Source of the DNA: an uncultured Candidatus Saccharibacteria bacterium
Lineage (GTDB): Bacteria > Patescibacteriota > Minisyncoccia > Phycocordibacterales > PALSA-1337
NCBI GenBank assembly: GCA_964495685.1
Contig: CAZBVQ010000001.1
Location: 39,477-103,476, forward strand
Length of the DNA stretch: 64,000 bases
Direction: 5' to 3'
Under the pieces are notes generated by a model. That model made no database searches and was not told the origin of the DNA. It saw only the letters and a list, made by a program, of their open reading frames with translations. Positions within the stretch are counted from its first letter, which is position 1, and each line of letters begins with the position of its first letter. The position numbers and the translations under genes are program-made. Below, one piece after another: positions 9,941 through 24,515 of this stretch.

Positions 9941-10010
9941 TAAGTATATACCTGTTTATAATTTTGCAAACTTGTGGAGGGTAAAAAAATATGTTGATAA
10001 GGTGGGGATA

Positions 10011-10126
10011 GGCCACCACAACACACAGGCACCACAATTCACCAGCAACAGAATGGTGTACGGAACATTTGTACACCACATCCTAACCTTGCTGGTGAAT
10101 TGTGGTGCCTGTGTGTTGTGGTGGCC
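10011..10126. repeat. perfect 38-bp inverted repeat (arms 10011-10048 and 10089-10126) with 40-nt spacer in the dnaA-rpmH intergenic region
   Basis: Left arm GGCCACCACAACACACAGGCACCACAATTCACCAGCAA; the right arm is its exact reverse complement. The spacer carries a nested GGTGTAC...GTACACC palindrome. It causes the mirrored ORF pair 9956..10162 / 9972..10178. Confidence 0.9.
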
Positions 10127-10183
10127 CCTAGAAAGTCGTAGGAACTTGATGAAAATCAACAAATATGTAATAGTATGATAACT

Positions 10184-10318
10184 ATGTCATTCACATACGC
10201 CCCCAAGAAACGAAAGCGAGCACGAACACATGGATTTCGTGTACGCATGAAGACGACCTCTGGTCGCAAGGCTCTTGCTCGTCGTCGTACCAAAGGACGC
10301 CGTCGCGTGGCTGTATAA
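10184..10318 (+). CDS. rpmH: 50S ribosomal protein L34
   Basis: Translates to [44 protein letters not shown]. Below the ORF-track length cutoff. Immediately upstream of rnpA. Confidence 0.9.
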
Positions 10319-10319
10319 T

Positions 10320-10655
10320 ATGTTGCCCCGTTCACAGAGACTCTCTGCTGAAGAACTCAACACAGTTATGGAAAAAGGAAGAGTTACCCACTCTTCCCTT
10401 TTTCTCATACGCTCACTTCCTGTAACAACAGGCACAAAAATAGCCGCAGTCGCCCCCCAGAAAATATTCAAAACAGCTGTTGCTCGTAGCAACACTCGTC
10501 GCCGGATATACAACAATCTTCCGAAAGGCGGTTTCGTTGGACAGAGATCGCAGCACATCGTTCTCGTTGCAAAACCAGCGATTATTGATGCTGACAGCAA
10601 AGCAATCCAAGAAGATACCAAGGCACTTTTTGTGAAAATAGGCATTCTGCGCTAG
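10320..10655 (+). CDS. rnpA: ribonuclease P protein component
   Basis: Basic 111-aa protein following rpmH in the conserved rpmH-rnpA-yidC order. Start set at the ATG at 10320, overlapping the rpmH stop. Confidence 0.85.
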   Translation: MLPRSQRLSAEELNTVMEKGRVTHSSLFLIRSLPVTTGTKIAAVAPQKIFKTAVARSNTRRRIYNNLPKGGFVGQRSQHIVLVAKPAIIDADSKAIQEDTKALFVKIGILR

Positions 10656-10658
10656 TAT

Positions 10659-11396
10659 GTGATGGTTATGTACACTACTTTTATATTCAAACCCCTTTAT
10701 AACGGTCTCGTTGGCATTCTTGATATTATTCCCTGGATCGATGTTGGTATTGCTGTCATTTTGTTTACTGTTATCGTTAAACTCATCCTCTTTCCCCTTT
10801 CGAAATCATCCCTCCTTACCCAGGTGCGCATGAAGCAGATCGAGCCAGAAGCCAACAAAATCAAAGCCGAATATGCCAATGACCGTCAGACGCAGACGCT
10901 CAAGGTTATGCAGCTCTACAAAGAGAAAGGCATCAAACCGTTCGCAGGTATACTGCTCTTGTTGATCCAGCTCCCTATTCTCCTCGCACTCATTTCAGTG
11001 TTCTATAAGATTATCCCTGCAATTCACCCAGAACTTCTCTATAGCTTTGTGTCGGTTCCTGATATATCCAACAAAATTTATTTCTTGGGATTAATAGATC
11101 TCACCAACAAAAGCATCATCCTTGCCCTTATTACTGGTGTGGCACAGTTTGTTCAATTACACTTCTCAATATCAGCTCGCCAAACGCAGGTCCCAGGAGG
11201 CCCTGGTATGGATATGGCAGCATCGATGACGAAACAGATGAAATATATCCTGCCAATCCTGGCATTCGCCTCAACCTACTGGCTTATTCCGGCGCAATTC
11301 CCCCAGGCCGCCTCGATTATCGCCATTTACTGGACAGTCAGTGCCCTATTCACTCTTGGGCAGGAGCTTTATATCCGGAAAAAATACGTAGGATAG
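10659..11396 (+). CDS. yidC: membrane protein insertase YidC (short monoderm-type)
   Basis: 245 aa, multi-TM, YidC/Oxa1 motifs. Synteny with rnpA. Confidence 0.85.
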   Translation: MMVMYTTFIFKPLYNGLVGILDIIPWIDVGIAVILFTVIVKLILFPLSKSSLLTQVRMKQIEPEANKIKAEYANDRQTQTLKVMQLYKEKGIKPFAGILLLLIQLPILLALISVFYKIIPAIHPELLYSFVSVPDISNKIYFLGLIDLTNKSIILALITGVAQFVQLHFSISARQTQVPGGPGMDMAASMTKQMKYILPILAFASTYWLIPAQFPQAASIIAIYWTVSALFTLGQELYIRKKYVG

Positions 11397-11403
11397 CTAT
11401 ATG

Positions 11404-11429
11404 AAAAAGGGGGCCACAGCCCCTTTTTG
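11404..11429. terminator. bidirectional intrinsic terminator hairpin (AAAAAGGGGGCCACAGCCCCTTTTTG)
   Basis: GC stem flanked by an A-run and a T-run between convergent yidC and the 11443..12756 gene. Confidence 0.55.
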
Positions 11430-11442
11430 TTGTTAGTACTTG

Positions 11443-12756
11443 TTACTTCAGATCATACGACCATAATGACAGGTCGTTTTTGTTCATGAAGAAGATGAAG
11501 TCGTCTCGATCATCGAGGCCGAGGTTGTAGGCGTCTATAACACGATCTGAAGCGTCTACGATCGAAGAAATCAAGTGTACCTCGTTGGTTGACGCGTTGA
11601 CCTGCCATAGTTTGTCAACGAAAGAGGTGTCGCCACGATACCAATCATCGGGATATGTTCCTGGAATAGGTTGTGATGGGACGGCACAATAGACCACGTC
11701 CTTGTAGGTATTACCCCAAGCACATTTGTCTGCAAGGGTGCGAATGACGGCATCAGTCCCCTTTCGCTTGGTCACATCATAAATACTCGAGACAACATTG
11801 TCAGAACTTCCTGCTGCCGAAATGAACACCTTCTTGGCATCAGTGCTGACTTTGGTGCTCAGTCCAGGCAAAGGTCCAAGAATTTTCTTCCACACACCGG
11901 TTTTGGTGTCAACGAAATAAAGATACCCACGTTCACTGGCGGCACCCTTGGTGGTGATGGCGATGGTCTGGTCTTCGGGCCACTCAGCATTGACTTGGGT
12001 GAGTGGTGTGACGAACAGCTGGGTCGGGGATGAACCGTCGAACTTGAATATATAGCCGACCCCCACACCTTTCTCTGATAGAAGCATAAATACACGGTCT
12101 TTTTTGGGCGATACCGCATATGTCAGGATCGTGCTCGGTAGATTCTTGCCGCGCAGTTCGTAAGGGGTCAAGGAAGTGAGCGCTACCTGGGGTGTCGAGG
12201 TGCTTGCCTTGGGCATGATACGTGCACGGAGTTCGGCCCATATGCCAGAAATGGTATTGGCATCAGATATGCCGAAGGCCATGAATGAGGTGAGGTTCTT
12301 GTTCCACAAACTCTCGTACATTTTGGGCACAACGGTATTGGATATAGTTGTAATGTCGAGCGTATTGCCGCGGGCTTCATATACATTACCGCGACCGCGG
12401 TCGAGCCAACGGACGACAGTGGTGCTACTGGCGATCGGAGTCTTGACAGTGCCTGTAGTGCTTGCGCCATATCCAGAGACTGGAGTGTTACTGAGAAGAC
12501 GCAAAGCGGGAATCTTGAGTTGGGTACCGGTGGCGGTGGATGCACGCGTTGTGGTGGCGGGCTGAGTCGATGTTGAAGTGGCGCTTGATCGTGGGCCTCC
12601 CCTATCGAAGGGCGAGAAACCTCCCTGGTCAGGCGTCTCGGTGACCGGGGTATCTATACTTGTTGTATCACGCAAGAAAAACTGCCAGTATGCCAAAGCG
12701 ACGATGATGACGATGACGATGAATGCTATGAAATAGTGGAGGGTTTTGCGAGTCAT
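11443..12756 (-). CDS. hypothetical membrane-anchored protein with Ser/Thr-rich linker (last gene of the T4SS-like operon)
   Basis: N-terminal TM helix, low-complexity STSTQPATTTRASTATGT linker, beta-rich C-terminal region. Confidence 0.5.
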   Translation of the reverse strand: MTRKTLHYFIAFIVIVIIVALAYWQFFLRDTTSIDTPVTETPDQGGFSPFDRGGPRSSATSTSTQPATTTRASTATGTQLKIPALRLLSNTPVSGYGASTTGTVKTPIASSTTVVRWLDRGRGNVYEARGNTLDITTISNTVVPKMYESLWNKNLTSFMAFGISDANTISGIWAELRARIMPKASTSTPQVALTSLTPYELRGKNLPSTILTYAVSPKKDRVFMLLSEKGVGVGYIFKFDGSSPTQLFVTPLTQVNAEWPEDQTIAITTKGAASERGYLYFVDTKTGVWKKILGPLPGLSTKVSTDAKKVFISAAGSSDNVVSSIYDVTKRKGTDAVIRTLADKCAWGNTYKDVVYCAVPSQPIPGTYPDDWYRGDTSFVDKLWQVNASTNEVHLISSIVDASDRVIDAYNLGLDDRDDFIFFMNKNDLSLWSYDLK

Positions 12757-12761
12757 TATAT

Positions 12762-14087
12762 TTACTGTATTTTCAAACTTTTTAGCTTCTGCCTAGCCTC
12801 AGTTGCTTTTTGCACTAATTGTTGGCATAGGGCAGGGTCACTAACACTGCTCGAGCAACCATTAACTACGGTATTAATTTGATTCTGTGCATACCCAACG
12901 GCCTCATTTAAAGTTCTCGCATTGCTTGACTGGTACCACCAAGCAACTGGCCCCCATAGATCTTTGTCATTAATGACCACTTGTGTTGCGTAGGCAACCT
13001 GAGTGTTTATTTGCTCGAGCTTGTTTGAGTAGTTTGTATAATCTTCCAAGGACTTTAATTGATTCGGAGCTGCTCCGATCGCTATAAGGGCAGCACGTCT
13101 TGTCTGATATTCACTATTCAAATCAGTACTTAGTTGTTCAGGGGTTTTGTTTGCTATTGATCCAGTAGAAGGGTCACTGTCCAAAACTCTTTGATTTATA
13201 GCGGCTTTTGCAACAACCAAGAGAGCATTTGCTTGCTCGTCTCTTATTGCCGCATCCTGTGCCAGTATTTGAGTGGCAATACTCCGAGCGTCCGATCCCA
13301 ACCCAGACGACCGATTTGCAAGGGCTAGGCAGGGGTCTTTATATGGGGCGCCGGAATTTTGTTGTAATAGTAAAGGATCACTGACAGATATATTCGCCGT
13401 CAACTGATCACACAAAGATTTTTTTCGTTCTTCTAGTGTTGAAACGATTTGTTGGGATTTTGCCAAATCTTGTTTGGCTGATTCAACGCTTGTATGAAAT
13501 TCCGACATTGTCTTTGTAAGTTGTCCAAAAAAAGTAGACGCCGACGATGAGACACAACGACTATCCGTTACGGATAGTTCACGATTACTCGCACAGCGTA
13601 TATCTATCGGCGTTACCAATGTGGTCGGTATTTGCACTAGTCGCGGGTCAATCGTCCGCAGTATCAAATATGAACACAGTATAAGAACGAGTCCATAAAC
13701 TGCATTCTTAAGCTTTTCGAGCCCAGCGCTCTTTTGGTTGTAAGAATCTGAACTCATATATTCGAAGCCGCCCCAGACAATCATAAACACGGCCAATACG
13801 GCCGCCAATGCAATAACCAAATTGAATGCATACTGAACATAATTCTCGAAATTAATAGACGTCATCTGGGTGTTACCTCCACAGGTGATGGCCGGAGTTA
13901 CAACTTCTCCCCTCTCGTTCTGTACGGCCGCACTTTCGATACAAGGCAGGGGTTCCAAAAGTGTATACTCAACTTGCTTCTCTTGGGCGAACACAAACGG
14001 TGTCGACATTATGAGTACACCGACGAATAATGCCGTACAGATGACACTGAGTAGCCAGATATATTTTTTATTGAAAGTGTATGTCAT
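12762..14087 (-). CDS. VirB2/TrbC-like pilin domain protein with about 300-aa C-terminal extension
   Basis: Signal peptide, then two hydrophobic helices separated by a short charged loop (YAFNLVIALAAVLAVFMIVWGGFEYMSS ... NAVYGLVLILCSYLIL), as in TrbC/VirB2 pilins. Long coiled C-terminal region. Confidence 0.4.
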   Translation of the reverse strand: MTYTFNKKYIWLLSVICTALFVGVLIMSTPFVFAQEKQVEYTLLEPLPCIESAAVQNERGEVVTPAITCGGNTQMTSINFENYVQYAFNLVIALAAVLAVFMIVWGGFEYMSSDSYNQKSAGLEKLKNAVYGLVLILCSYLILRTIDPRLVQIPTTLVTPIDIRCASNRELSVTDSRCVSSSASTFFGQLTKTMSEFHTSVESAKQDLAKSQQIVSTLEERKKSLCDQLTANISVSDPLLLQQNSGAPYKDPCLALANRSSGLGSDARSIATQILAQDAAIRDEQANALLVVAKAAINQRVLDSDPSTGSIANKTPEQLSTDLNSEYQTRRAALIAIGAAPNQLKSLEDYTNYSNKLEQINTQVAYATQVVINDKDLWGPVAWWYQSSNARTLNEAVGYAQNQINTVVNGCSSSVSDPALCQQLVQKATEARQKLKSLKIQ

Positions 14088-14089
14088 AT

Positions 14090-15100
14090 CTAAAACGTAG
14101 TTGCATTAGTTTCTTTTTGGTTTGAAAAAATAACCGAAAACCCAGAAGTTGCCCCTTGCAGTATACGTTCTGTGCTTCCGATATTCAGACGAACCTGAGA
14201 GGTTCCAGAAGATCCTTCGGGTGCACGGAGGATAACAGATTTTTTTGATGATAGAGTGTCCCTCTTGAGATTGTTTATACCCCAATTCCATTCGGTTTCA
14301 GGAGTGTCCACAGCATTAAAACCAAACGGAACACCAAAGACGGTCACCTCTTTTTGTTGACCCACGTATACAGTATTGGTGATTGAACGATTGAATAATG
14401 GACCATACGTGGCATCATCAACGTAAAATCCAATAGAAGGTGTACCACTTTGAACCGATGCATACGCTACGGCGGAGGCGCTGTTGTCGCGGGGCCAAAC
14501 AGTGACCGATATGTCGTAAGGTCGTGGGACAACGTCTCCTGCTATCAGTACATATTGTTTGCCGTACCCAGACTGATCCTCAATAACACGACCATTCTTT
14601 TTCCATTGGTATACAAGAGACGATGGATCATATTCTATCCCTGCTGAATTTGCCACGTGCGCTATAGCGGCAATTTTAATAGTGTTTTGGTATACAGGAG
14701 AGAGTTTGCCTCGGAAGAAAGGGGGCGTGTATCCATCAGTCTCAAATACTAGATCGACAAAACCAGACCCTAAGGTGAAGGAATTTTTTATGACTGTGCC
14801 GTCCGTATTGACCGCGGTGACCTCTATTGACATTTTTTTGCCTAGAATCGGAGCGATAACCTCGAGCGATGTAGCACCTGTCGCACTGCGCACCACCTTA
14901 CCATCAACAACCCAAGTAACCTTTGCGGCATTGATATCAATAGTGTAACTACGTGCGGTAATGGTGACCGTCTGTCCTGGTACAGGATTGTCTGTCGACG
15001 GGGATAGCTCGAGGCCGCCTGTCACTGATATTTGGGCGTGGGCGGACGAAAATACAAAGAAATAAGACAGGAATACAACTAGAAATAGGCGCGATTTCAT
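14090..15100 (-). CDS. hypothetical secreted beta-rich protein
   Basis: Signal peptide MKSRLFLVVFLSYFFVFSSAHAQ when started at the internal ATG at 15100. Repetitive beta-strand (Ig-like) sequence. Confidence 0.5.
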   Translation of the reverse strand: MKSRLFLVVFLSYFFVFSSAHAQISVTGGLELSPSTDNPVPGQTVTITARSYTIDINAAKVTWVVDGKVVRSATGATSLEVIAPILGKKMSIEVTAVNTDGTVIKNSFTLGSGFVDLVFETDGYTPPFFRGKLSPVYQNTIKIAAIAHVANSAGIEYDPSSLVYQWKKNGRVIEDQSGYGKQYVLIAGDVVPRPYDISVTVWPRDNSASAVAYASVQSGTPSIGFYVDDATYGPLFNRSITNTVYVGQQKEVTVFGVPFGFNAVDTPETEWNWGINNLKRDTLSSKKSVILRAPEGSSGTSQVRLNIGSTERILQGATSGFSVIFSNQKETNATTF

Positions 15101-15158
15101 TGTCCATATTTTACCACGGAGCCAGAACGTAGTCCTCGTGGTATTCGGGGATAAATAA

Positions 15159-15626
15159 CTATCCTTGAGCTGGTAGGCCCCCGTTAGGAGCGCGCACTCC
15201 CGCCCCTTCCCCACCATTCAAGGGTTCTCTGGGTCGGGGTTCTCGGCGCCCATTGAAGTTGAGCATGGTTTTTGCTGAGCCAATCTGTTTTCCTTGTGAT
15301 AGTGGCTTGATCACAGAAACACCAGCTTTGTCCTCAATTCGAGTGATGAGTATTATGGCTATTATCCCGGCAGTTACTTCGATAGGTAATTCCTGCACGA
15401 CGGGTATAAGTGATGCAACCCAAGAAATAGCCATGGCGGCCAACTTTCTACCATTGAACAGGCCCAGGCCCTTCGTCCAACCATATAGGGCGAAGAATAT
15501 CCAAAACAATGAGGCCGTAATATCCTTTGCAAAAGGGATCAATCCTATCAGGTCAGCAATAAATGCAAGGGCGATCAGTATGACTACCATTGCCGTCCCT
15601 ATTCTATATTTCGGCTTGTTCACCAT
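15159..15626 (-). CDS. hypothetical small polytopic membrane protein
   Basis: 155 aa, about 3 TM helices, Gly/Pro-rich C-terminus. Lies between the VirB4-like ATPase and the secreted protein. Confidence 0.5.
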   Translation of the reverse strand: MVNKPKYRIGTAMVVILIALAFIADLIGLIPFAKDITASLFWIFFALYGWTKGLGLFNGRKLAAMAISWVASLIPVVQELPIEVTAGIIAIILITRIEDKAGVSVIKPLSQGKQIGSAKTMLNFNGRREPRPREPLNGGEGAGVRAPNGGLPAQG

Positions 15627-15641
15627 GCCGTTAGTATACCA

Positions 15642-17456
15642 CTATCCCGCCTGTTCCAGCTGTTTCTTTGCATCCTTGATGGCCAGTACCTGTGCAGGAT
15701 TGGTGGTGATGATCTGGTCTTCTGTATATGACCCGACGACCTTGATAGCCACGTGTTTGAGCCCTACGAAGAATATGCCCTCCCCTACATCAGATTCGAG
15801 CAAGAGATACTTCTCCTCGTCGGTTAGGTTGAATGTTTTCTGGATATGGTCGATGACTGTCGGAGATTGTTTGAGCAAGATCTGGATGGATGAGTTGGTC
15901 ACGATAGGCATACCATACGGAGAATTCAAGAAGTCATCCACGTCTTGTGTGATAGTCGAGAGGCCCAAGAAATATTTGCGACCACGCTTGGCTAGGCCGA
16001 ACAAGAATGAGGCGGTGTCCTCTGACTTCATCATCCACCACGCCTCATCGATGACCAAGAGGCGACGCTTCAAATTCTTGCGAATAGCGTTCCATATATA
16101 GTGAGTGACGATATACATGGCCACTGGCTTGAGCTCATCCTCCATGTCGCGGAGGGAGAAAACCACGAATTTCTTATTGATATCGACATTCGAGGGACGA
16201 TTGATGAAGCCGGCCCAAGTACCCTTGGTATATTTGGACAGACGTTGGACCAGAGAGTCGCCGCCTTCCATTCCTGCCAATACCAGCTCGAAGTCTGAGA
16301 GCAGTGGTGGCTCTACGGTGCGGAAATCGGCCTCAGGTGTAATATCCTTGAGAGCGTATGTCTCACTGATAGCACGATCGATGATGGCGTCCTCTTCTTG
16401 GGTCAGGCCACCAAGCATGATGCGGAAGAGACCGACGAGGTTGATGATGTTGGAGCGGAGGACGTCAGCTGCAGACTCATCTTCACGGGGAATCGGTAAG
16501 TCGAACGGGTTGATATGGTGTTCGGAGTTGAGCGAGATGTTGAAGTACTTCCCTCCTGTGGCCTCAGCCATGTACTCATATTCTTTTTCGGGGTCAATGA
16601 CGATGACGTCAGTATCGAACATGAGGGTGCGTAGAATCTCGAGCTTGGTCGTATATGATTTACCAGCACCAGCAGTAGCGAAGGTGACGGAGTTGTAGTT
16701 TTCGAGGGAGAAACGATCGAACAAGACAAGTGATGAATTGTGGCGGTTGATACCGTACAGGATACCCTTGTCTGATGTAAGGTCGAATGATACGAATGGA
16801 AATAGTGATGAGAGTGGCGAGGAATTGAGCTTGGAATGGACAGTGAGCTGGTCGTCGGCAATGGGAATAACTGATTTGAAGCCTTGTTCCTGCTGGAATA
16901 GAGCCGGTTTGACGTACACGAGCTTGGATTCAAGAATGGATTTGATTTCGGATTCAAGCTTATCGAGCTCACCTTCTGAGTCGGCAAACAAAGTGATGTA
17001 CACACCTACGTCGAAGAGGTGTTCTTGTGCCTGCATCAATTGGTCACGGAGCTGTTCGAGGTCTTGGTATGCAGTATCCAGCGCTGGATCACGGACGAGG
17101 CCCTTGTCTTCCCTGCGCGAGATCTGACTCTGGACTTCAGCCACCTTCTTCTGGAAATGGCGCAGAATCTTTGCCGTATCTACTGGGTGGATGAATATTG
17201 ATATGTTAAAAATTTTGTCGAGGTTGATGATGGGGGCAAACCAGCTCTCATCAAGGAAGCGCGGGTATGAAATAACGAATAGAGTGCGCCCCACCTTCTC
17301 GCCAAGATTGAGATCCTTGGGACTTATTTTGAGAGCTGATGGTGAAATGACGTCTTTGAGCTCCAAAACACCGGCCTGATATATTTCTTCCGGCAGAATA
17401 GAAACGATCGGGGATCGCTCATCTTTCTTGCCGAATAAAGTGCTTAAGAATGACAT
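15642..17456 (-). CDS. VirB4/TrbE/CagE-family T4SS ATPase, C-terminal ATPase part
   Basis: Walker A TFATAGAGKSYTTK, Walker B LLVIDEAWWMM and VirB4 signature blocks. Starts 1 nt after the stop of the upstream ORF (TAAcATG). Confidence 0.85.
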   Translation of the reverse strand: MSFLSTLFGKKDERSPIVSILPEEIYQAGVLELKDVISPSALKISPKDLNLGEKVGRTLFVISYPRFLDESWFAPIINLDKIFNISIFIHPVDTAKILRHFQKKVAEVQSQISRREDKGLVRDPALDTAYQDLEQLRDQLMQAQEHLFDVGVYITLFADSEGELDKLESEIKSILESKLVYVKPALFQQEQGFKSVIPIADDQLTVHSKLNSSPLSSLFPFVSFDLTSDKGILYGINRHNSSLVLFDRFSLENYNSVTFATAGAGKSYTTKLEILRTLMFDTDVIVIDPEKEYEYMAEATGGKYFNISLNSEHHINPFDLPIPREDESAADVLRSNIINLVGLFRIMLGGLTQEEDAIIDRAISETYALKDITPEADFRTVEPPLLSDFELVLAGMEGGDSLVQRLSKYTKGTWAGFINRPSNVDINKKFVVFSLRDMEDELKPVAMYIVTHYIWNAIRKNLKRRLLVIDEAWWMMKSEDTASFLFGLAKRGRKYFLGLSTITQDVDDFLNSPYGMPIVTNSSIQILLKQSPTVIDHIQKTFNLTDEEKYLLLESDVGEGIFFVGLKHVAIKVVGSYTEDQIITTNPAQVLAIKDAKKQLEQAG

Positions 17457-17457
17457 G

Positions 17458-18096
17458 TTAGGTTATTTGGATGGGCTTCTCTGTCTCTCCAGGGTTGAAC
17501 AGTTTGTAGAACAATTCTACCACTTCTTCGGTGCCGAGCTCAGCGGCTCTAATGCCACAACGCACGAGACCTTGTTCGACTACTGCTACGCGCTGCTCGA
17601 GCTGGCTTCGATATTCCTGGAATTGGGCATCTGCTGTAGTATTTCCCGTCTTGGCGCTCTTGCTCGGAAGGATACTTGAGATGGGGTTTTTGCTAGCAGT
17701 TATGAGTGGCGGATCATATGGCACGACGACGAAGAAGCTCTTAGACATGATGTTGGTACTCTCGACGAATGTCTTAATGAACTCGATATATTCGCGGACC
17801 TGTATTTTCATAAGCTCAGTCGCCTGCTCTTTGTAGCGATCCTCGAGAAGTGCAATATAGGGGCGGATGTCGAGTTTCTTGGACTGTACGAATATCTGGA
17901 TCGAGAAATCGAGCGAATTCACGAAATTTTGGAACTGCATCAAGATAGAACTCTGCTCATCTTGTGATTTGAGGGCGAAGTTGAGGGATGACACGAGCAC
18001 GATGGCGCGCATACCACCATTTTTAAGGATGATGATTCCATCACGGATTTCCTGGATGGGGATGAAATCTTGGGTTGTTTTTGATGGGGCGGCCAT
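17458..18096 (-). CDS. VirB4-family N-terminal domain encoded as a separate ORF
   Basis: TQDFIPIQEIRDGIIILKNGGMRAIVLVSSLNFALKS matches the N-terminal domain of PrgJ/TcpF-type VirB4. 212 aa + 604 aa together make the usual ~800-aa VirB4. Confidence 0.6.
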   Translation of the reverse strand: MAAPSKTTQDFIPIQEIRDGIIILKNGGMRAIVLVSSLNFALKSQDEQSSILMQFQNFVNSLDFSIQIFVQSKKLDIRPYIALLEDRYKEQATELMKIQVREYIEFIKTFVESTNIMSKSFFVVVPYDPPLITASKNPISSILPSKSAKTGNTTADAQFQEYRSQLEQRVAVVEQGLVRCGIRAAELGTEEVVELFYKLFNPGETEKPIQIT

Positions 18097-18533
18097 TAGC
18101 GTTGATTTTTATTGGAATACATACTTTCCTTAATATCGAGACTCCAGCTCAGGTCTTTGAGTTTGCTGTCAGATATTTTGGGCACCATGATCGAGGCGTA
18201 GTTCCTGGCGTCCTTGACGGCAGTATCAGTGTTGCGCGGTCTGGGCTTCTCGACCTTCCTCCATATATAGAGTTTGTTGCCGAGGTAATACTTGAAAGCG
18301 GCCTCGACGGTGTTGACGAACGGTTGGCGTGGATTGATTTTGTAGAAAGCAAACGCGGCTGAAATGGCCATAATGAGGATGATGGGCACGATCGCCAAGG
18401 TGACACTGTTCAAGAATACGTAGACAATGAAAGAGAGACCTCCCCCACCGGCGAGGTAAATGAATTGTTTGAGTGTCAGCGGGCCGAATATCTTGTCTTC
18501 AACCTCAATAAATTGGGGAACTTGGAATCGCAT
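18096..18533 (-). CDS. PrgI/VirB3-like small membrane protein
   Basis: MRFQVPQFIEVEDKIFGPLTLKQFIYLAGG followed by two TM helices. Same pattern and position (just upstream of VirB4) as PrgI-family proteins. Confidence 0.55.
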   Translation of the reverse strand: MRFQVPQFIEVEDKIFGPLTLKQFIYLAGGGGLSFIVYVFLNSVTLAIVPIILIMAISAAFAFYKINPRQPFVNTVEAAFKYYLGNKLYIWRKVEKPRPRNTDTAVKDARNYASIMVPKISDSKLKDLSWSLDIKESMYSNKNQR

Positions 18534-18597
18534 CGTACTCTATTATATCCTATAGCGTCGAGTCCGGATATGTGGAAGGTGTCAGTGGGCCGTACGT

Positions 18598-19323
18598 CTA
18601 GAAGCTCTCTCTATAAGGATCTGGTGTTCCTGCGGGACGGGGTTTGGGCTGTTGGGCCGGTGTCGGACGTGTAGGAGATACGGTTTTGCTTGCTTGGCCC
18701 ACAGGATTGCTCAGCAGATAGTCCACCAGAGGTTCGACGTGACTCTCCTCTTGTTTGGGTTGGGCTGGCAACGTACGTGGCACAGGATTCGAACTATTAG
18801 TCGAGCTCGTAGGTAGATTTGCAGGAACCTGATCCGTAGGTGTAGGTGCGCTTGTCGGTGGATTCTCGAGTCCAGCCAGGATAGAGTTGCGGTCAGCTGG
18901 AGTGACCGGCTTGCGTTCTGGCTCGGTGGCGGGCTTGTCGATGGAGAAGCCGCCGACGCGTTCGAGGGAGGAGATGGCAGAGCTTGATTCTTCCTGGGTA
19001 TTTCTTATAGTTTCAGATTTGAGTAAGTTGCGGATAGGATCAAATATTACCTTGTTGATATCCTGACTGAGAGCCAACGTTATTTTCGAGGAAATACCCA
19101 GTCTTTGAGATACGTTTGTAACAAAGTCTGCAGAAGAGTGCAGATTAAGTAGAACAAGACCTATCTCATCCACGAGTTCACCTATTTGATCAATATGGAG
19201 GTTGTATTTCTCACTGAGAACTTCAATAGAATCTTGTATTTCAGGAGAGCTAATAGTAGCTTTCAGTTGTTCTGGAAGTTTGTCGAAAGCATCCTGTATT
19301 TCTTGTGCGTTATAAGGTCTCAT
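18598..19323 (-). CDS. hypothetical protein with Pro/Thr-rich C-terminal tail
   Basis: 241 aa, globular N-terminus, disordered PT-rich C-terminus. Start overlaps the stop of the VirB6-like gene. Confidence 0.45.
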   Translation of the reverse strand: MRPYNAQEIQDAFDKLPEQLKATISSPEIQDSIEVLSEKYNLHIDQIGELVDEIGLVLLNLHSSADFVTNVSQRLGISSKITLALSQDINKVIFDPIRNLLKSETIRNTQEESSSAISSLERVGGFSIDKPATEPERKPVTPADRNSILAGLENPPTSAPTPTDQVPANLPTSSTNSSNPVPRTLPAQPKQEESHVEPLVDYLLSNPVGQASKTVSPTRPTPAQQPKPRPAGTPDPYRESF

Positions 19324-21413
19324 TATTTTTTATCTTCTTTCTTTTCACCTCCACCTCCTCCGCCCACACTGTCTTTAATACCACCTACAAGCTTTTCTCG
19401 GTCTTCTTCCTTCTCCTTTTCTTTGTTTTTCTTCCTTATTTGTTCCTCTGTAGTTCTCCTATTGTCTTCATTTTGCGCACGTCGTTTTCGGAGATCTGCC
19501 ACATGTTTTTCAAGTCGATCTATATCCGCATCTGCCTGAGCTGTTGCTAGAGGGACAGAAGAAATCGTAGTTTTGGTGGCAGTGAGTTGCTTAATTTGAT
19601 CCTCGATCTCTTGAGCATATCCTGGACCTGCGATGGCGGTGTAACGACCAGACTTCTCTCTGAGTTCTCTAATTTGTTCATCTATAGTGTTTACCTGATC
19701 GTCTTTTTGTTTTTGTAGCTGTTCTGCTGTTTTTTGTGATTGCTCTTTGATCAAGCGTATTGAATTGAGCGAGACGTTGATATCGGCATCCAATTGACGT
19801 TCTCGGAACTTGGAAACGTCGACTACGGCCTTGAGGTCTTCTAAATCTTTATCCTTCTGTGCTTTATCTTTATATTTCTTTGCTACCTCGAGATTGGCAC
19901 GATCCTTCATCATTAAGGTAAAGACAGAAGACTTACCGAGGTTTTGAACCATGTTGTTCTGGTAACGCTTCCCACGCTCCTTGTCCGAATCAGTACCTAC
20001 TTGCTTGTGTAGTGCCTCTATATCCTTCTTGCGTTGCTTCAGCGTGCCGTCATAACTGCCATTCTTTTCACCAAAGCCTGACCCGCTAACTTTCGAAAGA
20101 CGTTTCGATATTGCGAGCCCCAAGTTTGGATTATTTGCATAGATTCGACGCATGGTTGCGGAATCGTTAAGTTTATTTGCCCCCGCTCCGAGCGTATTTC
20201 TTCCTGTAAAGCTACCCACCTTCTTCCATAATATATCCGCCCCCATCTTCTTGCCATCTAATAACCCACCCGTAACTGCGCCGAGTTTGATGGCGGCCAA
20301 TAAGGGGATATTGAGCATCACAATAATAAGCGCAGCATTGATGGCAAAGGAGATAAATTCGGTTGGTACGAGAGCATTTGTTTGCGCTCCTTTCCAGAGA
20401 CTTCCATAGGCCCCTGTATTGAATAAGTTGCTATTTGAAATAATACGAAGAGCGACATACATGAAGAGCAGGTATGCAGGCATAAAGATGAGCTGGTTTT
20501 TGAACACCTTCCACCACTCATCAGCATACTCTTTGAGTTGAGGAATAATGGCAGCCGCAAACCATATCGGAGAGAACGCCAGCAATATGAGTAGTAATAC
20601 GAGACGTATTACGAATGCAAGGGATGCAAACAAAAAGCTTAGTCCGGCTGTTATCATGATGACGACACCAGTGGTACCAATAAGAATTATACGGAAAGGG
20701 GTTGAAATTCCAGCTGAAGGGTCACTCATCCCTAGATTTTTTGAGTTGAAAGTTGTTTGAAGCTGGAGTGACTGCATGAATACAGCCGAAAGACCACCAT
20801 CACTAAACAGCGTGTTGACTATTTGTGGCAGGGTTCCTACCGAGGCCGCATCCCTACTATTTATTAGCTTGCCGATATCTGGTTGTCCAGGAGTTATGGC
20901 GTTATATAGCTGTAGAGAGACTATGTTTGAGGCATCGATACACAGCCCAGTTATGAAGAAACTAAAATTGATGAGCACACCAGCGACGACGATGTTCTTT
21001 ATGGTTTGGCCGAGTTTGGCATCTTTGCCCAGAATCATACGTATGGATGCATACATAAGTCCAAATATAATGAACATTCCCGAAATATCGCGGATTGCTT
21101 TCCATACGTCATATATTGCAGGGGTACTGTTGACGAAGTCTCTGATGTGCATCGTCAAGTTGATTGACACGTTCAAGAGTGTTCCGGTGAGTGCTACGAA
21201 CCATGAACTTACTGAGAGCACCACGTTCATGAATGAAGCCAAGATTTTCATCAAGAAATCCCACGCATTCGCAATTCCGAAGAGACTTTGTGCATGGGCG
21301 GAATGTGTTGTCAGTGCCAATACAGCCATCACCAATACGCCTATCGTCAGTAATTTGCCGGCGGTGCCGAATCGGTGGAGGTCTCTTATTTTTTGTATCA
21401 GTCTAGATGACAT
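19323..21413 (-). CDS. VirB6/TrbL-like polytopic membrane protein with charged coiled-coil C-terminal tail
   Basis: Signal sequence, at least 6 TM helices in the first ~400 aa, then a K/E-rich coiled coil ending in a GGGGGG-EKKEDKK tail. Size and topology fit VirB6/TrbL. Confidence 0.5.
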   Translation of the reverse strand: MSSRLIQKIRDLHRFGTAGKLLTIGVLVMAVLALTTHSAHAQSLFGIANAWDFLMKILASFMNVVLSVSSWFVALTGTLLNVSINLTMHIRDFVNSTPAIYDVWKAIRDISGMFIIFGLMYASIRMILGKDAKLGQTIKNIVVAGVLINFSFFITGLCIDASNIVSLQLYNAITPGQPDIGKLINSRDAASVGTLPQIVNTLFSDGGLSAVFMQSLQLQTTFNSKNLGMSDPSAGISTPFRIILIGTTGVVIMITAGLSFLFASLAFVIRLVLLLILLAFSPIWFAAAIIPQLKEYADEWWKVFKNQLIFMPAYLLFMYVALRIISNSNLFNTGAYGSLWKGAQTNALVPTEFISFAINAALIIVMLNIPLLAAIKLGAVTGGLLDGKKMGADILWKKVGSFTGRNTLGAGANKLNDSATMRRIYANNPNLGLAISKRLSKVSGSGFGEKNGSYDGTLKQRKKDIEALHKQVGTDSDKERGKRYQNNMVQNLGKSSVFTLMMKDRANLEVAKKYKDKAQKDKDLEDLKAVVDVSKFRERQLDADINVSLNSIRLIKEQSQKTAEQLQKQKDDQVNTIDEQIRELREKSGRYTAIAGPGYAQEIEDQIKQLTATKTTISSVPLATAQADADIDRLEKHVADLRKRRAQNEDNRRTTEEQIRKKNKEKEKEEDREKLVGGIKDSVGGGGGGEKKEDKK

Positions 21414-21419
21414 GTAGTA

Positions 21420-23192
21420 TTAGTGAATTCCTGAAAGTAACGGGTTCTGGAATCGGTGATACGGTAGTGCTCCGTCGAAGCCGATCTGATATGGCATGGC
21501 ATTACATATACCTTGGAACATATCGGCATCTTTGTTGAGCATTACGACCAAGGTGTCAGCAGTCTTCTTCCCTGCTCGCGCATCCTCTGAGCTCTCGATA
21601 CCAGCTTGTGCGCCACGGAGAGTCGCATCGATGGTCGTATCGACACGATTGAATCCTTGACTGATGTCGTTATCGGTTACGCCGCGTATCTGAGTGATAC
21701 TGGTAGATGCGGTCGCACGATACCCACCGAGTGCAGTGGCGACCGCATCTTTCTTGTACGTTGTAGATGCGATCTGGGGATCGATATTCTGCGCGAGTAC
21801 TTGATCAATGCTATAGACCAATCGTTCTGCATATGTGCGCTGGAATGAAGATATGTTGTGGTTCGCTAATATCTTGGTGGTGAAGCATGCGCGAGCGGTG
21901 GTGTATTTGGTACGAGTCGTGTTGAGTGATGCGAGCGTTTCGTCATAGGTTGTGATGTTGCTTTGTCCGAGGTTGATGATGGAGTTTGAGCTACTTAATG
22001 TTCGATCACGAGTCGATCGTGCGTCGAAGCTGTTCTGGTTGTAAGATTCTTCACTGAGTTGAGTCAGGTATGATTTCGAATTGCCGCCTGTACCAGAGCC
22101 GCGACCACTAAGTGCGGCGAGACCTTGAGTAAACATCTGGTTGACGAGCGCGCCAGTGATGGCGTCGATGCTATCACTGATTGTTTTGACCAATACGAGT
22201 TTATCAGTAGGAACATTGAGCTGGCGCTGGAGCGACCCGGCTATCATGGAGCCGGGAGTTTGTGTCTCACAGCTCTTGTAAGCTACCACCCCATTCTTTT
22301 TAACTTTCTTGATACTGGTAGCTTTGTTCAAATCAGTTTGACCCGTAACTACAGTGTGTTCACCAAACTCGTGAAGCTGCTGTTCTTGGGCGACACTTAG
22401 ACCAAGCTCACCACCATCAAACTGGCCACTTGTATAACCAGTGGTTACGTCAGTACATTTCTGCCATGACAAGAATCCTTGTCCCCTGTTGAGATCAGCA
22501 TTTACCGAGGCTTTCTTTTCGGCAATTTTACTTTGCAGGTCTAAGTCGGCCATAAGATATGCTCCAATAGGATTGTTTTGTGGTTCCGTCGAATAAGCAA
22601 CGAAGCCCCACCATCCTCCTTGTGAAAAATCACCATCTATGAAATTACCTAGAGCGACTCCGTCACGCGACCCACTCAATGTGATGCCACTATTTTGCCC
22701 CGCAGTATTTACAGCGTTACGGGTATTGTTGATGACCTTACCCAAAGTACAAGTATATCGTTTGTTATACGACGACATATCTACTTGATTTATTGCCAAG
22801 TTGAGTCGTATATCGAAACTGAACGGCGAACACAGCTGCGACAGTGCCCCAGTCTTGTCTATGAGCTCACCAGTAATTTGGTCGCCCACATCAAGGAAGA
22901 ACCCTTCGGGATTGGTTAGGAATGCTGGGCTACCCTCGAATCCTGTATTGATCCAATTGACCACACTTGCAGTCATGCGCTGGATCAACTGGTTGGCGAC
23001 CATGACGGCCAGTCTGTTGCCGACGAATTCTTTCCAGTTGTCCATGATGCAGTACACGTCGAAGAGTCCGCACGTAGTCGGAACGGCTAGTGCCTGAGCG
23101 CGCTTGGCCGGCAGGAACGAGAACGAAGATACGATCATCGTAGTGATGAGGAGGATGATCAGTGCGCCGCGTGAAAAAGTGTTCGATGTCAT
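21420..23192 (-). CDS. hypothetical large secreted protein
   Basis: Signal-anchor when started at the internal ATG at 23192 (MTSNTFSRGALIILLITTMIVSSFSF). About 590 aa, no recognisable catalytic motif. Confidence 0.5.
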   Translation of the reverse strand: MTSNTFSRGALIILLITTMIVSSFSFLPAKRAQALAVPTTCGLFDVYCIMDNWKEFVGNRLAVMVANQLIQRMTASVVNWINTGFEGSPAFLTNPEGFFLDVGDQITGELIDKTGALSQLCSPFSFDIRLNLAINQVDMSSYNKRYTCTLGKVINNTRNAVNTAGQNSGITLSGSRDGVALGNFIDGDFSQGGWWGFVAYSTEPQNNPIGAYLMADLDLQSKIAEKKASVNADLNRGQGFLSWQKCTDVTTGYTSGQFDGGELGLSVAQEQQLHEFGEHTVVTGQTDLNKATSIKKVKKNGVVAYKSCETQTPGSMIAGSLQRQLNVPTDKLVLVKTISDSIDAITGALVNQMFTQGLAALSGRGSGTGGNSKSYLTQLSEESYNQNSFDARSTRDRTLSSSNSIINLGQSNITTYDETLASLNTTRTKYTTARACFTTKILANHNISSFQRTYAERLVYSIDQVLAQNIDPQIASTTYKKDAVATALGGYRATASTSITQIRGVTDNDISQGFNRVDTTIDATLRGAQAGIESSEDARAGKKTADTLVVMLNKDADMFQGICNAMPYQIGFDGALPYHRFQNPLLSGIH

Positions 23193-23193
23193 A

Positions 23194-24072
23194 TTATTTG
23201 ACCATGCTAAAAATAATGGCAGGCTCGGTGGAACTGAACTCGAGCCCTTCTTGTGAAAATGCAAATTTCAGATCCAGCAACGCGTCTCTCATCTGGCCGA
23301 GGGATTTTTCGTAAACAGCCAATGCTGCAATGCTCTGGAGGGGGTCGCTAAAAACTTTGGTCATGCCACGTGACGCGAATGACATGGCGCTCATGCTGTT
23401 GACGAGATTGGTATGGAAGCCGGCAAGGGATTTGGGTACCTCTGTCGCAAGAGTGCTACTCAACATGCGGTCGTATGCAGCCGCGATCATCTCAACCTCT
23501 TTTATCTTGGACTGGTCCTCTTCGTCGAGCGCTTGCAATGCTACGGTAGCAGCATCGTGGGCGGGCATATTGGCAGAAAAAATAGTACCCACTGCGTTGG
23601 CGTATACCCTATCGCTCGATGCGCCACTGTTTTGGGAGATACGAATCTCGCGGACATCATATACTCGTGCTTGAGGGGCGGCATCGACAATGTTGGTTGT
23701 CGTCTGATCGACGAGAGCCTTGATTGCTTGAGGGTCTTCGTTCAAATTATTTTGTTTGAGGTACATATATTGTTCGAAGAATTTCTTGCCGAACTGGCCA
23801 GTCAGTGTCTCTGGTTCGGAGATGATGGTTTTTGCGGAAGAAGCACTGACTGCAATGGAGCTCGAACCAGTAGTGAGGAATTGTTTGCGCCAGTCACCTG
23901 ATTCAGGGACAACGGATCCACCAGAGATGACGGGAGATACGGTGCTGGTCTTTTTGGGGGTCATTCTCGAGAACAAAGAATTGCCGTACGCGGCATATCC
24001 AGCGACAGCAACTCCGACTATGCATACAATGAGGACGATGAGCGTCTGTTTGTGCCCACGGGATAGCGACAT
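23194..24072 (-). CDS. hypothetical membrane-anchored protein (first gene of operon)
   Basis: N-terminal TM helix. Stop abuts the next gene. Confidence 0.5.
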   Translation of the reverse strand: MSLSRGHKQTLIVLIVCIVGVAVAGYAAYGNSLFSRMTPKKTSTVSPVISGGSVVPESGDWRKQFLTTGSSSIAVSASSAKTIISEPETLTGQFGKKFFEQYMYLKQNNLNEDPQAIKALVDQTTTNIVDAAPQARVYDVREIRISQNSGASSDRVYANAVGTIFSANMPAHDAATVALQALDEEDQSKIKEVEMIAAAYDRMLSSTLATEVPKSLAGFHTNLVNSMSAMSFASRGMTKVFSDPLQSIAALAVYEKSLGQMRDALLDLKFAFSQEGLEFSSTEPAIIFSMVK

Positions 24073-24167
24073 ACGACATAATTATATAGTAATAACGCCG
24101 TAATTGCTGGATTTTCTGTGGACAATACGATATCGACTTGGTGCAAATCGTGATACCATAGAAGCAC

Positions 24168-24515
24168 ATGACAGAACTTCATCATATGCGTAAATATATA
24201 TTTATACTTTTTCTGTTGACATTCATATCGGCGCCCGTGGTTACTGCTCGTGCGGCGGTGCCTATCCCATTCGGAGGATTGGTGACTACGATGCAGCCAT
24301 GCGACGAAGGTTTGTTGGTCTATGTGCTCACGCCAGTAACAGGAGTCATCCCCTTCATGTGGCTCTGGGGAGAACTGCCCTTCCTCATGTACATCCCCCC
24401 GCATACAGGTCAAGAGTTGCTCGGGTATGCTGCTACGGTCCCAGTGGTCTGTACAATTGGGGGCTTCCCTTATGGAGCGGGCTTACCGATCATCATGCAC
24501 GGATCAAGTCTCTAG
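24168..24515 (+). CDS. small secreted hydrophobic protein, possible VirB2-like pilin
   Basis: Signal peptide (cleavage after ARA), then two hydrophobic segments; about 90 aa mature. Divergent from the T4SS-like operon. Confidence 0.3.
   Translation: MTELHHMRKYIFILFLLTFISAPVVTARAAVPIPFGGLVTTMQPCDEGLLVYVLTPVTGVIPFMWLWGELPFLMYIPPHTGQELLGYAATVPVVCTIGGFPYGAGLPIIMHGSSL

What the first reader, a model, noticed from the sequence alone, without database searches (positions are those of the whole stretch)
17440..17475. VirB4 encoded as two abutting ORFs (N-terminal domain, then TAAcATG, then ATPase domain)
The 212-aa ORF (17458-18096) matches the N-terminal domain of Gram-positive VirB4 (PrgJ/TcpF-type). 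The 604-aa ORF (15642-17456) carries the ATPase core. They are separated by a stop codon, one nucleotide and an ATG, in different frames, and both frames are closed around the junction.

This is either a genuine split of VirB4 into two translationally coupled polypeptides or a frameshift (sequencing error or pseudogenisation). A natural split would be functionally interesting, because the VirB4 N-terminal domain mediates membrane and VirB3 contacts.
Basis: seen in the sequence. Interest (0 to 1): 0.55.

Follow-up and report, generated by a model that had tools for sequence, protein, structure and literature searches.

The report
Conserved two-gene VirB4 (TrsD-like plus ATPase)
The two abutting genes are a real, ancient and strongly conserved two-piece form of the VirB4 secretion ATPase, normal for this group of ultra-small bacteria (Patescibacteria) and for some Gram-positive plasmids; it is not a frameshift, and it has already been described in the literature.

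Summary
On the minus strand a 212-aa ORF (17458-18096) ends in TAA, one C follows, and a 604-aa ORF (15642-17456) starts at ATG.

It is not an error or a pseudogene:
- The same TAAcATG junction occurs in independent assemblies, including 98%-identical strain variants.
- All 78 orthologous loci from other species that hold both ORFs keep them separate, with spacers from -4 to +194 nt, all three stop codons and all three relative frames.
- Synonymous sites are saturated (pS about 0.8), but amino-acid change is small (pN 0.12 and 0.07).

The two ORFs map side by side, without overlap, onto full-length VirB4. The break lies in a variable linker inside the N-terminal domain, about 250 residues before Walker A, not at the border with the ATPase domain.

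The same arrangement (VirB3-like gene, N-piece, ATPase) with the same break point occurs in staphylococcal pSK41 (TrsC/TrsD/TrsE) and in Bacillota megaplasmids. A Colwellbacteria-like lineage has the fused 775-807-aa form.

Quinonero-Coronel et al. 2025 already report TrsD as the most abundant T4SS component in Patescibacteria, usually associated with virB4, near dnaA, and essential in one cultured strain.

Verdict: genuine, ordinary for the lineage, already known.

The parts
18096..18533 (-). PrgI family (VirB3-like) membrane protein, 145 aa, first gene of the prgI / N-piece / ATPase unit. Its TAA stop overlaps the ATG of the next gene by one base (TAATG).
   Evidence: Pfam PF12666 PrgI, E 3.9e-12. 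Two hydrophobic segments. The junction reads CGCTAATGGCC. A TATAAT hexamer ends 8 nt before its ATG.
17458..18096 (-). TrsD-like (Pfam PF26593 'TraC-like') protein, 212 aa, soluble. It corresponds to the first ~215 residues of a full-length VirB4.
   Evidence: NCBIfam hits only to N-terminal parts of VirB4 models and to TrsD/TraD. 41% identity to residues 1-214 of the fused 797-aa VirB4 P0191. For the AlphaFold model (pLDDT 65), the top 14 Foldseek PDB hits are all TrwK/VirB4 chains of R388. More than 7900 homologues were found, and the best 120 are all 209-230 aa. No TM segment.
17454..17465 (-). The junction: TAA (stop in the ATPase frame), CC, TAA (stop of the 212-aa ORF), C, ATG (start of the 604-aa ORF).
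   Evidence: The same sequence is present in six independently assembled contigs.
15642..17456 (-). VirB4 ATPase body, 604 aa: the second half of the VirB4 N-terminal domain plus the P-loop (RecA-like) C-terminal domain. Walker A is GAGKS at residues 263-267.
   Evidence: conju_CD1110 positions 185-732, E 8e-111, above cut-off. PF19044 P-loop_TraG, E 1.3e-26. PDB 4AG5 VirB4 C-terminal domain, E 1.9e-39, at residues 229-584. 56% identity to residues 225-796 of the fused P0191.
11443..23264 (-). Surrounding chromosomal T4SS-like gene cluster. It includes a 696-aa polytopic membrane protein (19323-21413, about 9 hydrophobic segments, VirB6-like by architecture only) and a 441-aa protein with a T4SS pilin domain (12762-14087). 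The other ORFs have no family assignment.
   Evidence: PF18895 T4SS_pilin, E 1.5e-9. Hydrophobic segments. The cluster lies beside yidC, dnaA and dnaN. A terminator-like hairpin at 11410-11423 follows the last gene.

Best explanation
The locus encodes VirB4 as two separate, functional polypeptides. The first is a 212-aa TrsD-like protein, equivalent to the first ~215 residues of full-length VirB4. The second is a 604-aa protein carrying the rest of the N-terminal domain and the ATPase domain.

Shown here:
- The split is fixed, ancient and under strong purifying selection in Paceibacteria-type Patescibacteria.
- The break lies in a variable linker.
- The break is at the same position as in the TrsD/TrsE pair of staphylococcal pSK41 and as in Bacillota megaplasmids.

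Inferred:
- The three genes prgI (VirB3-like), the N-piece and the ATPase are transcribed from a promoter at prgI.
- The two internal cistrons have neither a Shine-Dalgarno sequence nor their own -10 box. They are probably translated by termination-reinitiation across TAATG and TAAcATG, which would give roughly equal amounts.
- The N-piece then docks in trans on the ATPase body to rebuild the VirB4 N-terminal domain, the part that in R388 contacts VirB3 and the membrane complex.
- The machine belongs to the chromosomal, origin-proximal T4SS of Patescibacteria. That system lacks a relaxase in most of these clusters and is thought to serve the epibiotic lifestyle rather than conjugation.
For: 1. 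Not an error. The identical 212-aa protein occurs on 13 contigs from independent runs and assemblies. Six were inspected and all carry TAAcATG, including two strain variants at 98% nucleotide identity with a synonymous change 10 nt upstream of the stop.

2. Conserved split. 78 of 78 species-representative loci that hold both ORFs keep them separate. Measured spacers (77 loci): -4 nt (14), +1 nt (12), 3-13 nt (31), 17-194 nt (20). Stops: TAA 38, TGA 25, TAG 14. Relative frames: 20/32/25. ATPase ORF length is 602-614 codons in 69 of 70 complete cases.

3. Selection. Against the window, median pS is 0.82 and pN 0.12 for the N-piece, and pS 0.81 and pN 0.07 for the ATPase. dN/dS is 0.005-0.045 where it can be calculated. 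The last 25 codons of the N-piece, up to its stop, have pS 0.80 and pN 0.018.

4. Collinear, non-overlapping mapping onto full-length VirB4. NCBIfam model positions are 1-114 versus 185-732. On the fused P0191 they are 1-214 versus 225-796. The fused model aligns end to end with TrwK/VirB4 (Foldseek E 2e-25, about 800 columns). The fused family's least conserved stretch (residues 215-230) is where the break lies.

5. Same gene order and break point elsewhere. pSK41 has trsC, trsD (227 aa) and trsE (672 aa). Window ATPase residue 8 aligns with TrsE residue 5. In Pontibacillus, Bt407 and C. botulinum plasmids, N-pieces of 257-328 aa precede ATPases of 620-661 aa, and the ATPase N-termini align (24/22, 27/34, 38/37).

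6. Literature. [quoted passage not shown] It is the most abundant T4SS component in Patescibacteria, with 1,664 of 2,272 homologues associated with VirB4, and it is essential in Ca. Southlakia epibionticum ML1. The T4SS often lies near dnaA (PMC12102498).

7. Expression context. No Shine-Dalgarno sequence precedes either internal cistron, and such sequences are rare in the whole window. A -10-like hexamer next to the start codon is present at prgI and at the 155-aa ORF downstream, but not at the two VirB4 pieces.
Against: - Nothing speaks against the split being genuine.
- The mechanistic steps are untested here. No direct evidence shows that the two polypeptides bind each other, that they are made in equal amounts, or that reinitiation is the route of translation.
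- A quarter of the orthologues have long spacers, some holding inserted palindromic repeats, so tight coupling is not required.
- The N-piece model is of only moderate confidence (pLDDT 65), and its TM-score to TrwK is about 0.4.
- Pairwise similarity to pSK41 TrsD is weak (BLASTP E 0.009; hhalign not significant). The NCBIfam TrsD/TraD score (27.8 bits) is far below the curated cut-off of 200.
Confidence: 0.9

Rival explanations
1. A sequencing or assembly error (1-nt indel) has artificially broken a single VirB4 gene in this window.
For: A single-base spacer between a stop and a start in different frames is what an indel could produce. A false split does occur in a relative: P0289, '600 aa', is caused by a 100-N scaffold gap.
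Against: The same junction appears in six independently assembled contigs from different runs, including 98%-identical variants. Only two bases lie between the stops of the two frames. All 78 orthologous loci are split, with different junction geometries.
Confidence: 0.01
2. The locus is a decaying VirB4 pseudogene: a real frameshift mutation in a gene that is fused in functional relatives.
For: Fused 775-807-aa VirB4 proteins exist in another Patescibacteria lineage.
Against: Both ORFs are intact and their lengths are conserved. pN is far below pS (0.12 and 0.07 against about 0.8), and the last 25 codons of the upstream ORF are its most constrained part. The split persists across lineages whose synonymous sites are saturated. 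The homologue is listed as essential in Ca. S. epibionticum (PMC12102498).
Confidence: 0.01
3. Programmed recoding (a +1 frameshift at ACC-TAA-C, or stop read-through) produces a fused full-length VirB4 from the two ORFs, at least in part.
For: A +1 slip at the stop codon in this window would read ...PIQIT-N-MSFLS..., joining the frames. Stop-adjacent +1 shifts are known from prfB (general knowledge).
Against: Orthologues place the ATPase ORF in all three relative frames (20/32/25). Spacers reach 194 nt and contain stops and inserted repeats. No conserved slippery motif is present. The ATG and the N-terminal MS(F/I/L) of the ATPase ORF are conserved as a true start.
Confidence: 0.03
4. The 212-aa protein is an independent paralogue (a duplicated VirB4 N-domain with its own job), and the 604-aa ATPase is a complete, self-sufficient VirB4.
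For: In other Patescibacteria the stand-alone N-piece carries long P/Q/T-rich tails, which suggests extra roles. In Gracilibacteria, TrsD homologues are mostly not associated with VirB4 (PMC12102498).
Against: The two ORFs cover adjacent, non-overlapping parts of VirB4 models and of the fused homologue: 1-114 versus 185-732, and 1-214 versus 225-796. The 604-aa ORF therefore lacks the segment that the 212-aa ORF supplies. The fused proteins carry one copy of PF26593, not two. The two genes are adjacent and in the same order in 78/78 loci.
Confidence: 0.05

Closest known systems
TrsD + VirB4 of the Patescibacteria T4SS (Quinonero-Coronel et al. 2025, Microb Genom, PMC12102498; essential genes of Ca. 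Southlakia epibionticum ML1, Wang et al. 2023, PMC10633639)
   Same: Same lineage and same proteins: more than 7900 stand-alone homologues, with the named ones from Taylorbacteria, Paceibacteria and Parcubacteria. Same neighbours (PrgI/VirB3, VirB2-like pilin, polytopic membrane protein). Same chromosomal position next to dnaA.
   Different: Nothing substantive. The paper calls TrsD a remote homologue of the VirB4 N-terminus with no assigned function. It does not spell out the collinear fission, the shared break point or the fused Colwellbacteria-type form, which are shown here.
TrsC / TrsD / TrsE (also called TraC / TraD / TraE) of staphylococcal conjugative plasmids pGO1 and pSK41, the pGO1 subclass of MPF_FATA
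   Same: Gene order is VirB3-like, then a ~227-aa soluble protein, then a ~672-aa VirB4 ATPase. The ATPase N-terminus aligns with that of the window ORF (residue 8 with residue 5). The NCBIfam TrsD/TraD model hits the 212-aa ORF at E 2e-6.
   Different: It sits on a conjugative plasmid with a relaxase and a coupling protein. Sequence similarity of the N-pieces is marginal, and the score is far below the family cut-off. The plasmid has a 14-nt spacer with a GGGAG Shine-Dalgarno sequence, whereas this genome lacks such sequences.
Two-gene VirB4 of Bacillota megaplasmids (Pontibacillus sp. ALD_SL1, B. thuringiensis Bt407 BTB_502p, C. botulinum pCBG)
   Same: The N-piece gene follows a PrgI-family gene (Bt407, pCBG) or an unannotated small ORF (Pontibacillus). 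An N-piece of 257-328 aa (25-30% identical over about 190 residues) precedes an ATPase of 620-661 aa. The break point is the same.
   Different: The ORFs overlap by 11-14 nt instead of having a 1-nt spacer. The location is a plasmid. The N-pieces carry an extra ~40-60 N-terminal residues.
Full-length single-chain VirB4 (TrwK of R388, PDB 7O41/8RTD; CD1110 family; the fused 775-807-aa VirB4 of Colwellbacteria-like Patescibacteria)
   Same: The two window ORFs together reproduce the whole chain collinearly. The fused Patescibacteria model superposes on TrwK over about 800 columns. The fused gene also sits after prgI and next to dnaA.
   Different: One polypeptide instead of two. In the fused form a ~10-15-residue variable linker replaces the last 5 residues of the N-piece and the first 27 of the ATPase ORF.
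VirB3-VirB4 fusion proteins of some conjugative systems
   Same: Another rearrangement of the same VirB3/VirB4 module, showing that it tolerates changes in chain connectivity (mentioned in PMC12102498).
   Different: It goes the opposite way (fusion rather than fission), and that paper found none in its Patescibacteria dataset.

Membership tests
VirB4 family T4SS ATPase (CD1110-type, MPF_FATA) | P-loop ATPase domain with Walker A and homology to the VirB4 C-terminal domain | tested here: met
   PF19044, E 1.3e-26. NF045971 conju_CD1110, 371.6 bits against a cut-off of 325. PDB 4AG5, E 1.9e-39. GAGKS at residues 263-267.
VirB4 family T4SS ATPase (CD1110-type, MPF_FATA) | A complete VirB4 N-terminal domain in the same polypeptide | tested here: not met
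   The 604-aa ORF starts at model position 185 of 752. Positions 1-114 are supplied by the separate 212-aa ORF. Collinear mapping on the fused P0191 is 1-214 and 225-796. The domain is complete only across the two chains.
VirB4 family T4SS ATPase (CD1110-type, MPF_FATA) | Encoded next to a VirB3/PrgI-type membrane protein and other T4SS components | tested here: met
   PrgI (PF12666) lies immediately upstream, and a T4SS_pilin domain protein lies downstream.
TrsD/TraD family (NCBIfam NF041427, prototype pGO1/pSK41) | Score above the curated family cut-off (200 bits) | tested here: not met
   27.8 bits, E 2e-6, model positions 13-142 of 201. Pairwise BLASTP to pSK41 TrsD gives E 0.009. It is a remote homologue, not a member of the narrow subfamily.
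TrsD/TraD family (NCBIfam NF041427, prototype pGO1/pSK41) | A ~200-230-aa soluble protein encoded between the VirB3-like gene and the VirB4 ATPase gene | tested here: met
   The window order is prgI, 212-aa ORF, ATPase. There is no hydrophobic segment. pSK41 has trsC, trsD (227 aa) and trsE.
Pfam PF26593 'TraC-like' (the N-terminal module shared by stand-alone TrsD-like proteins and fused VirB4) | A match to the Pfam model | tested here: inconclusive
   Precomputed annotation assigns PF26593 to the identical protein and to all 120 best homologues, and to the N-terminus of the fused VirB4 proteins. My own scan of the local Pfam copy returned no family, apparently because that model is not in the copy.
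Chromosomal T4SS of Patescibacteria (PMC12102498) | The components VirB4, TrsD, PrgI/VirB3 and a VirB2-like pilin clustered together | tested here: met
   VirB6 is inferred only from a 696-aa protein with about 9 hydrophobic segments and no family hit.
Chromosomal T4SS of Patescibacteria (PMC12102498) | Chromosomal location close to dnaA and the replication origin | tested here: met
   dnaA at 8573-9940, dnaN at 7236-8342 and yidC at 10659-11396. The cumulative GC-skew minimum is at about 10-12 kb. The cluster starts at 11443.
Chromosomal T4SS of Patescibacteria (PMC12102498) | No relaxase or coupling protein in the cluster (system not used for conjugation) | tested here: inconclusive
   No relaxase or VirD4 family hit was found among the 20 ORFs scanned between 4324 and 30368. 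Several cluster ORFs have no assignment, and the rest of the genome was not examined.

The most novel reading that the evidence does not exclude
The fission is a single ancient event, a rare genomic change shared by pGO1-type plasmids, Bacillota megaplasmids and Patescibacteria, which the Colwellbacteria-like lineage later reversed by re-fusion.

On this reading the split persists because it lets the N-piece act as a separately dosed adaptor between PrgI/VirB3 and the ATPase. For example, it might occupy only the membrane-proximal VirB4 copies. Its invariant C-terminal tail (NPGETEKPIQIT, pN 0.018) would serve as the docking peptide, and in some lineages the N-piece has added long disordered tails for further partners.
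Probability: 0.25. Interest if true: 0.4.

Novelty: already known. Interest (0 to 1): 0.2.

Why it matters
- Annotation: this junction should not be flagged as a frameshift or pseudogene, and the 212-aa "hypothetical protein" should be named as the N-terminal piece of VirB4 (TrsD-like).
- Structural work: the Patescibacteria T4SS is essential for epibiotic growth in the one strain tested, and any model of its VirB4 motor must include this second chain.
- Evolution: the shared break point is a useful marker linking the Patescibacteria system to the pGO1-like branch of Gram-positive conjugation machines.
- None of this overturns current understanding.

Tried and rejected
- A sequence search of the 212-aa ORF against PDB chains found nothing, even at E 10. 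Only the fold comparison recovered TrwK/VirB4.
- The local Pfam scan gave no family for the 212-aa ORF, although precomputed tables list PF26593.
- Profile comparison of the shallow alignment A1 (Neff 1.4) with pSK41 TrsD was not significant. The link to TrsD rests on the NCBIfam HMM hit, the shared gene order and the shared break point.
- The sigma-70 promoter scan of 11000-24500 found no more sites than shuffled sequence (21 against 20.1), so it says nothing about operon structure. A targeted count of -10-like hexamers next to start codons was informative instead.
- An apparent close split relative of the fused family (P0289, 600 aa, 88% identical) looked like evidence of recent fission. It is an artefact of a 100-N scaffold gap inside a fused gene.
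- The palindromic repeat seen in some orthologous spacers is absent from the window.
Full report
**1. The observation**

On the minus strand the sequence reads ...CCC ATC CAA ATA ACC TAA c ATG TCA TTC.... The 212-aa ORF (17458-18096) stops at 17460-17458. One C follows. The 604-aa ORF (15642-17456) starts at 17456.

The ATPase frame carries a TAA at 17465-17463, two codons before its ATG. Only two bases therefore separate the stops of the two frames.

**2. What the two ORFs are**

The 604-aa ORF is a VirB4-type ATPase:
- PF19044 P-loop_TraG (E 1.3e-26).
- NCBIfam conju_CD1110 (E 8e-111, 371.6 bits, cut-off 325), but only over model positions 185-732 of 752.
- The crystal structure of the VirB4 C-terminal domain, 4AG5 (E 1.9e-39), over residues 229-584.

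The 212-aa ORF has no hit in the local Pfam copy. It does hit the N-terminal parts of several VirB4 models and the TrsD/TraD model:
- VirB4_plasma positions 101-233, E 4.7e-12.
- CD1110 positions 1-114, E 1.9e-6.
- TIGR00929 positions 7-169.
- TrsD/TraD, E 2e-6.

Precomputed tables place it in PF26593 'TraC-like'.

An AlphaFold model of the 212-aa ORF (pLDDT 65) found only TrwK/VirB4 chains of the R388 system as its 14 best PDB matches (Foldseek probability 0.98-1.00, TM about 0.4). A plain sequence search of PDB found nothing.

**3. The two ORFs are complementary pieces, not paralogues**

A fused 797-aa homologue (P0191) aligns with the 212-aa ORF over its residues 1-214 (41% identity). It aligns with residues 28-598 of the 604-aa ORF over its residues 225-796 (56% identity).

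A model of the fused protein, built from 67 fused sequences (pLDDT 72), superposes on TrwK/VirB4 over about 800 columns (E 2e-25).

In the alignment of fused proteins, residues 215-230 are the least conserved stretch around the break point (residues 121-300 examined) apart from an internal loop of the N-piece at 131-165. That stretch is exactly where the window's break falls.

The break is about 250 residues upstream of Walker A (GAGKS, residues 263-267). Extrapolating from the alignment of ORF residues 255-551 with TrwK 446-735, it falls at about TrwK residue 190-200.

**4. Error, pseudogene, or a conserved state?**

The identical 212-aa protein is recorded on 13 contigs from independent runs and assemblies. 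Six were read, and all show TAAcATG (and TAATG at the prgI junction). Two of them are strain variants at 98% nucleotide identity with a synonymous change 10 nt upstream of the stop.

A scan of one genome per species returned 363 relatives, of which the best 80 loci were kept. Of those, 78 hold both ORFs; the other two are cut by a contig end. All 78 are split.

The junctions differ between loci:
- An ATGA overlap in 14.
- A 1-nt spacer, as here, in 12.
- Spacers of 3-13 nt in 31.
- Spacers of 17-194 nt in 20.

All three stop codons and all three relative frames occur (20/32/25). ATPase ORF length is 602-614 codons in 69 of 70 complete cases.

Against the window, synonymous sites are saturated (median pS 0.82 and 0.81). 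Non-synonymous change is low (pN 0.12 and 0.07). dN/dS is 0.005-0.045 where it can be calculated. The last 25 codons of the upstream ORF are the most constrained part (pN 0.018).

Sequencing error, recent frameshift, pseudogenisation and conserved programmed recoding are therefore all excluded or very unlikely.

**5. Distribution**

More than 7900 homologues of the 212-aa ORF were scored. The best 120 are all 209-230 aa long and 81-100% identical. The named ones come from Taylorbacteria, Paceibacteria and Parcubacteria.

Among the best 150 representatives of 50%-identity clusters, 149 are stand-alone. The nine longer ones (322-443 aa) that were read all carry P/Q/T/A-rich tails rather than an ATPase.

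The one fused representative belongs to a family in which 118 of the best 120 clusters are 775-807 aa. The named ones are mostly Colwellbacteria. One of the two ~600-aa exceptions, P0289, was checked and is an artefact of a 100-N scaffold gap; the other, P0385, was not examined.

Outside Patescibacteria the same arrangement and break point occur in:
- Bacillota megaplasmids of Pontibacillus, B. thuringiensis Bt407 and C. botulinum.
- Staphylococcal pSK41, with trsC (VirB3-like), trsD (227 aa) and trsE (672 aa). Window ATPase residue 8 aligns with TrsE residue 5.

**6. Context and likely mechanism**

The cluster at 11443-23264 (minus strand) contains:
- A PrgI/VirB3-like protein.
- A polytopic membrane protein with about 9 hydrophobic segments.
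- A T4SS-pilin-domain protein.
- Several unassigned ORFs.

It lies directly beside yidC, dnaA and dnaN, at the cumulative GC-skew minimum.

The window hardly uses Shine-Dalgarno sequences. However, 12 of 53 genes have a -10-like hexamer ending 4-10 nt before the start codon, against 1.7 ± 1.3 at random positions. That points to leaderless mRNAs.

prgI has such a hexamer, and so does the 155-aa ORF after the ATPase. The two VirB4 pieces do not.

From this I infer the following. None of it is shown directly.
- There is a prgI / N-piece / ATPase transcript.
- Its internal cistrons are translated by termination-reinitiation across TAATG and TAAcATG.
- The N-piece then docks in trans on the ATPase body to complete the VirB4 N-terminal domain next to PrgI/VirB3.

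Long spacers in a quarter of the orthologues show that tight coupling is not obligatory.

**7. What is already known**

Quinonero-Coronel et al. 2025 (PMC12102498) report the following:
- TrsD is a remote homologue of the N-terminal portion of VirB4.
- TrsD is otherwise found only in the pGO1 subclass of MPF_FATA.
- It is the most abundant T4SS component in Patescibacteria, with 2,272 homologues, 1,664 of them associated with VirB4.
- It is essential in Ca. Southlakia epibionticum ML1.
- These T4SS clusters often lie near dnaA, and most lack a relaxase.

Guglielmini et al. 2014 identify TrsC of pGO1 as a VirB3 homologue. Wang et al. 2023 describe the essential, pilin-rich T4SS that lacks recognizable coupling and relaxase proteins.

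The window is thus a typical member of an already described arrangement. The details added here are incremental:
- The collinear fission in a variable linker.
- A break point shared with the Firmicutes plasmids.
- A stable fused lineage.
- The lack of conservation of the junction geometry.

**8. Verdict**

The feature is genuine, ordinary for the lineage and already known. Interest 0.2.

Noticed in passing
window 7236-11396: The replication-origin region: dnaN (7236-8342, minus), dnaA (8573-9940, minus) and yidC (10659-11396, plus), with the cumulative GC-skew minimum at about 10-12 kb. The T4SS-like cluster starts right next to it and is encoded against the inferred direction of replication.
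   Followed up: partly
window, whole (e.g. upstream of 18533, 15626, 24072, 32244, 6852/4324, 41855): Shine-Dalgarno sequences are almost absent. 12 of 53 genes have a TATAAT/TATACT-like hexamer ending 4-10 nt before the start codon (random expectation 1.7 ± 1.3), which suggests widespread leaderless mRNAs in this genome.
   Followed up: partly
L009:4640-4750, L039:4640-4740, L048:4700-4830, L066:4660-4760, L074:4625-4660 (also L039:6598-6624, L066:3886-3912, L070:7166-7192): A palindromic repeat (GTCATTCCCGCGAAAGCGGGAATCCAG ... inverted copy), MITE/REP-like, is inserted in the spacer between the two VirB4 pieces in several related genomes and recurs at other sites in them. It is absent from the window.
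   Followed up: partly
proteins P0167-P0199, P0249: In other Patescibacteria lineages the stand-alone N-piece carries a 100-230-residue low-complexity tail rich in P, Q, T and A. This suggests added interaction or spacer functions.
   Followed up: no
L086:544-2937 and the family: A Colwellbacteria-like lineage encodes the fused single-chain VirB4 (775-807 aa), also directly after prgI and a few genes from dnaA. Fused and split states are therefore each stable within a lineage.
   Followed up: yes
L085:1545-1647: A 100-N scaffold gap inside a fused virB4 gene makes gene callers report a 600-aa 'split' ATPase (P0289). This is an example of a false split in public data.
   Followed up: yes
one of the loci L001-L080 (ATPase ORF of 824 codons): One orthologous ATPase ORF runs for 824 codons instead of 602-614. 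It may be fused to the downstream gene or have lost its stop. I did not identify or examine the locus.
   Followed up: no
window 15642-17456 and 17458-18096 versus L001-L080: Amino-acid conservation is unusually high (ATPase 84-98%, N-piece 75-92% identity) across species whose synonymous sites are saturated. These are among the most constrained proteins of these fast-evolving genomes.
   Followed up: partly
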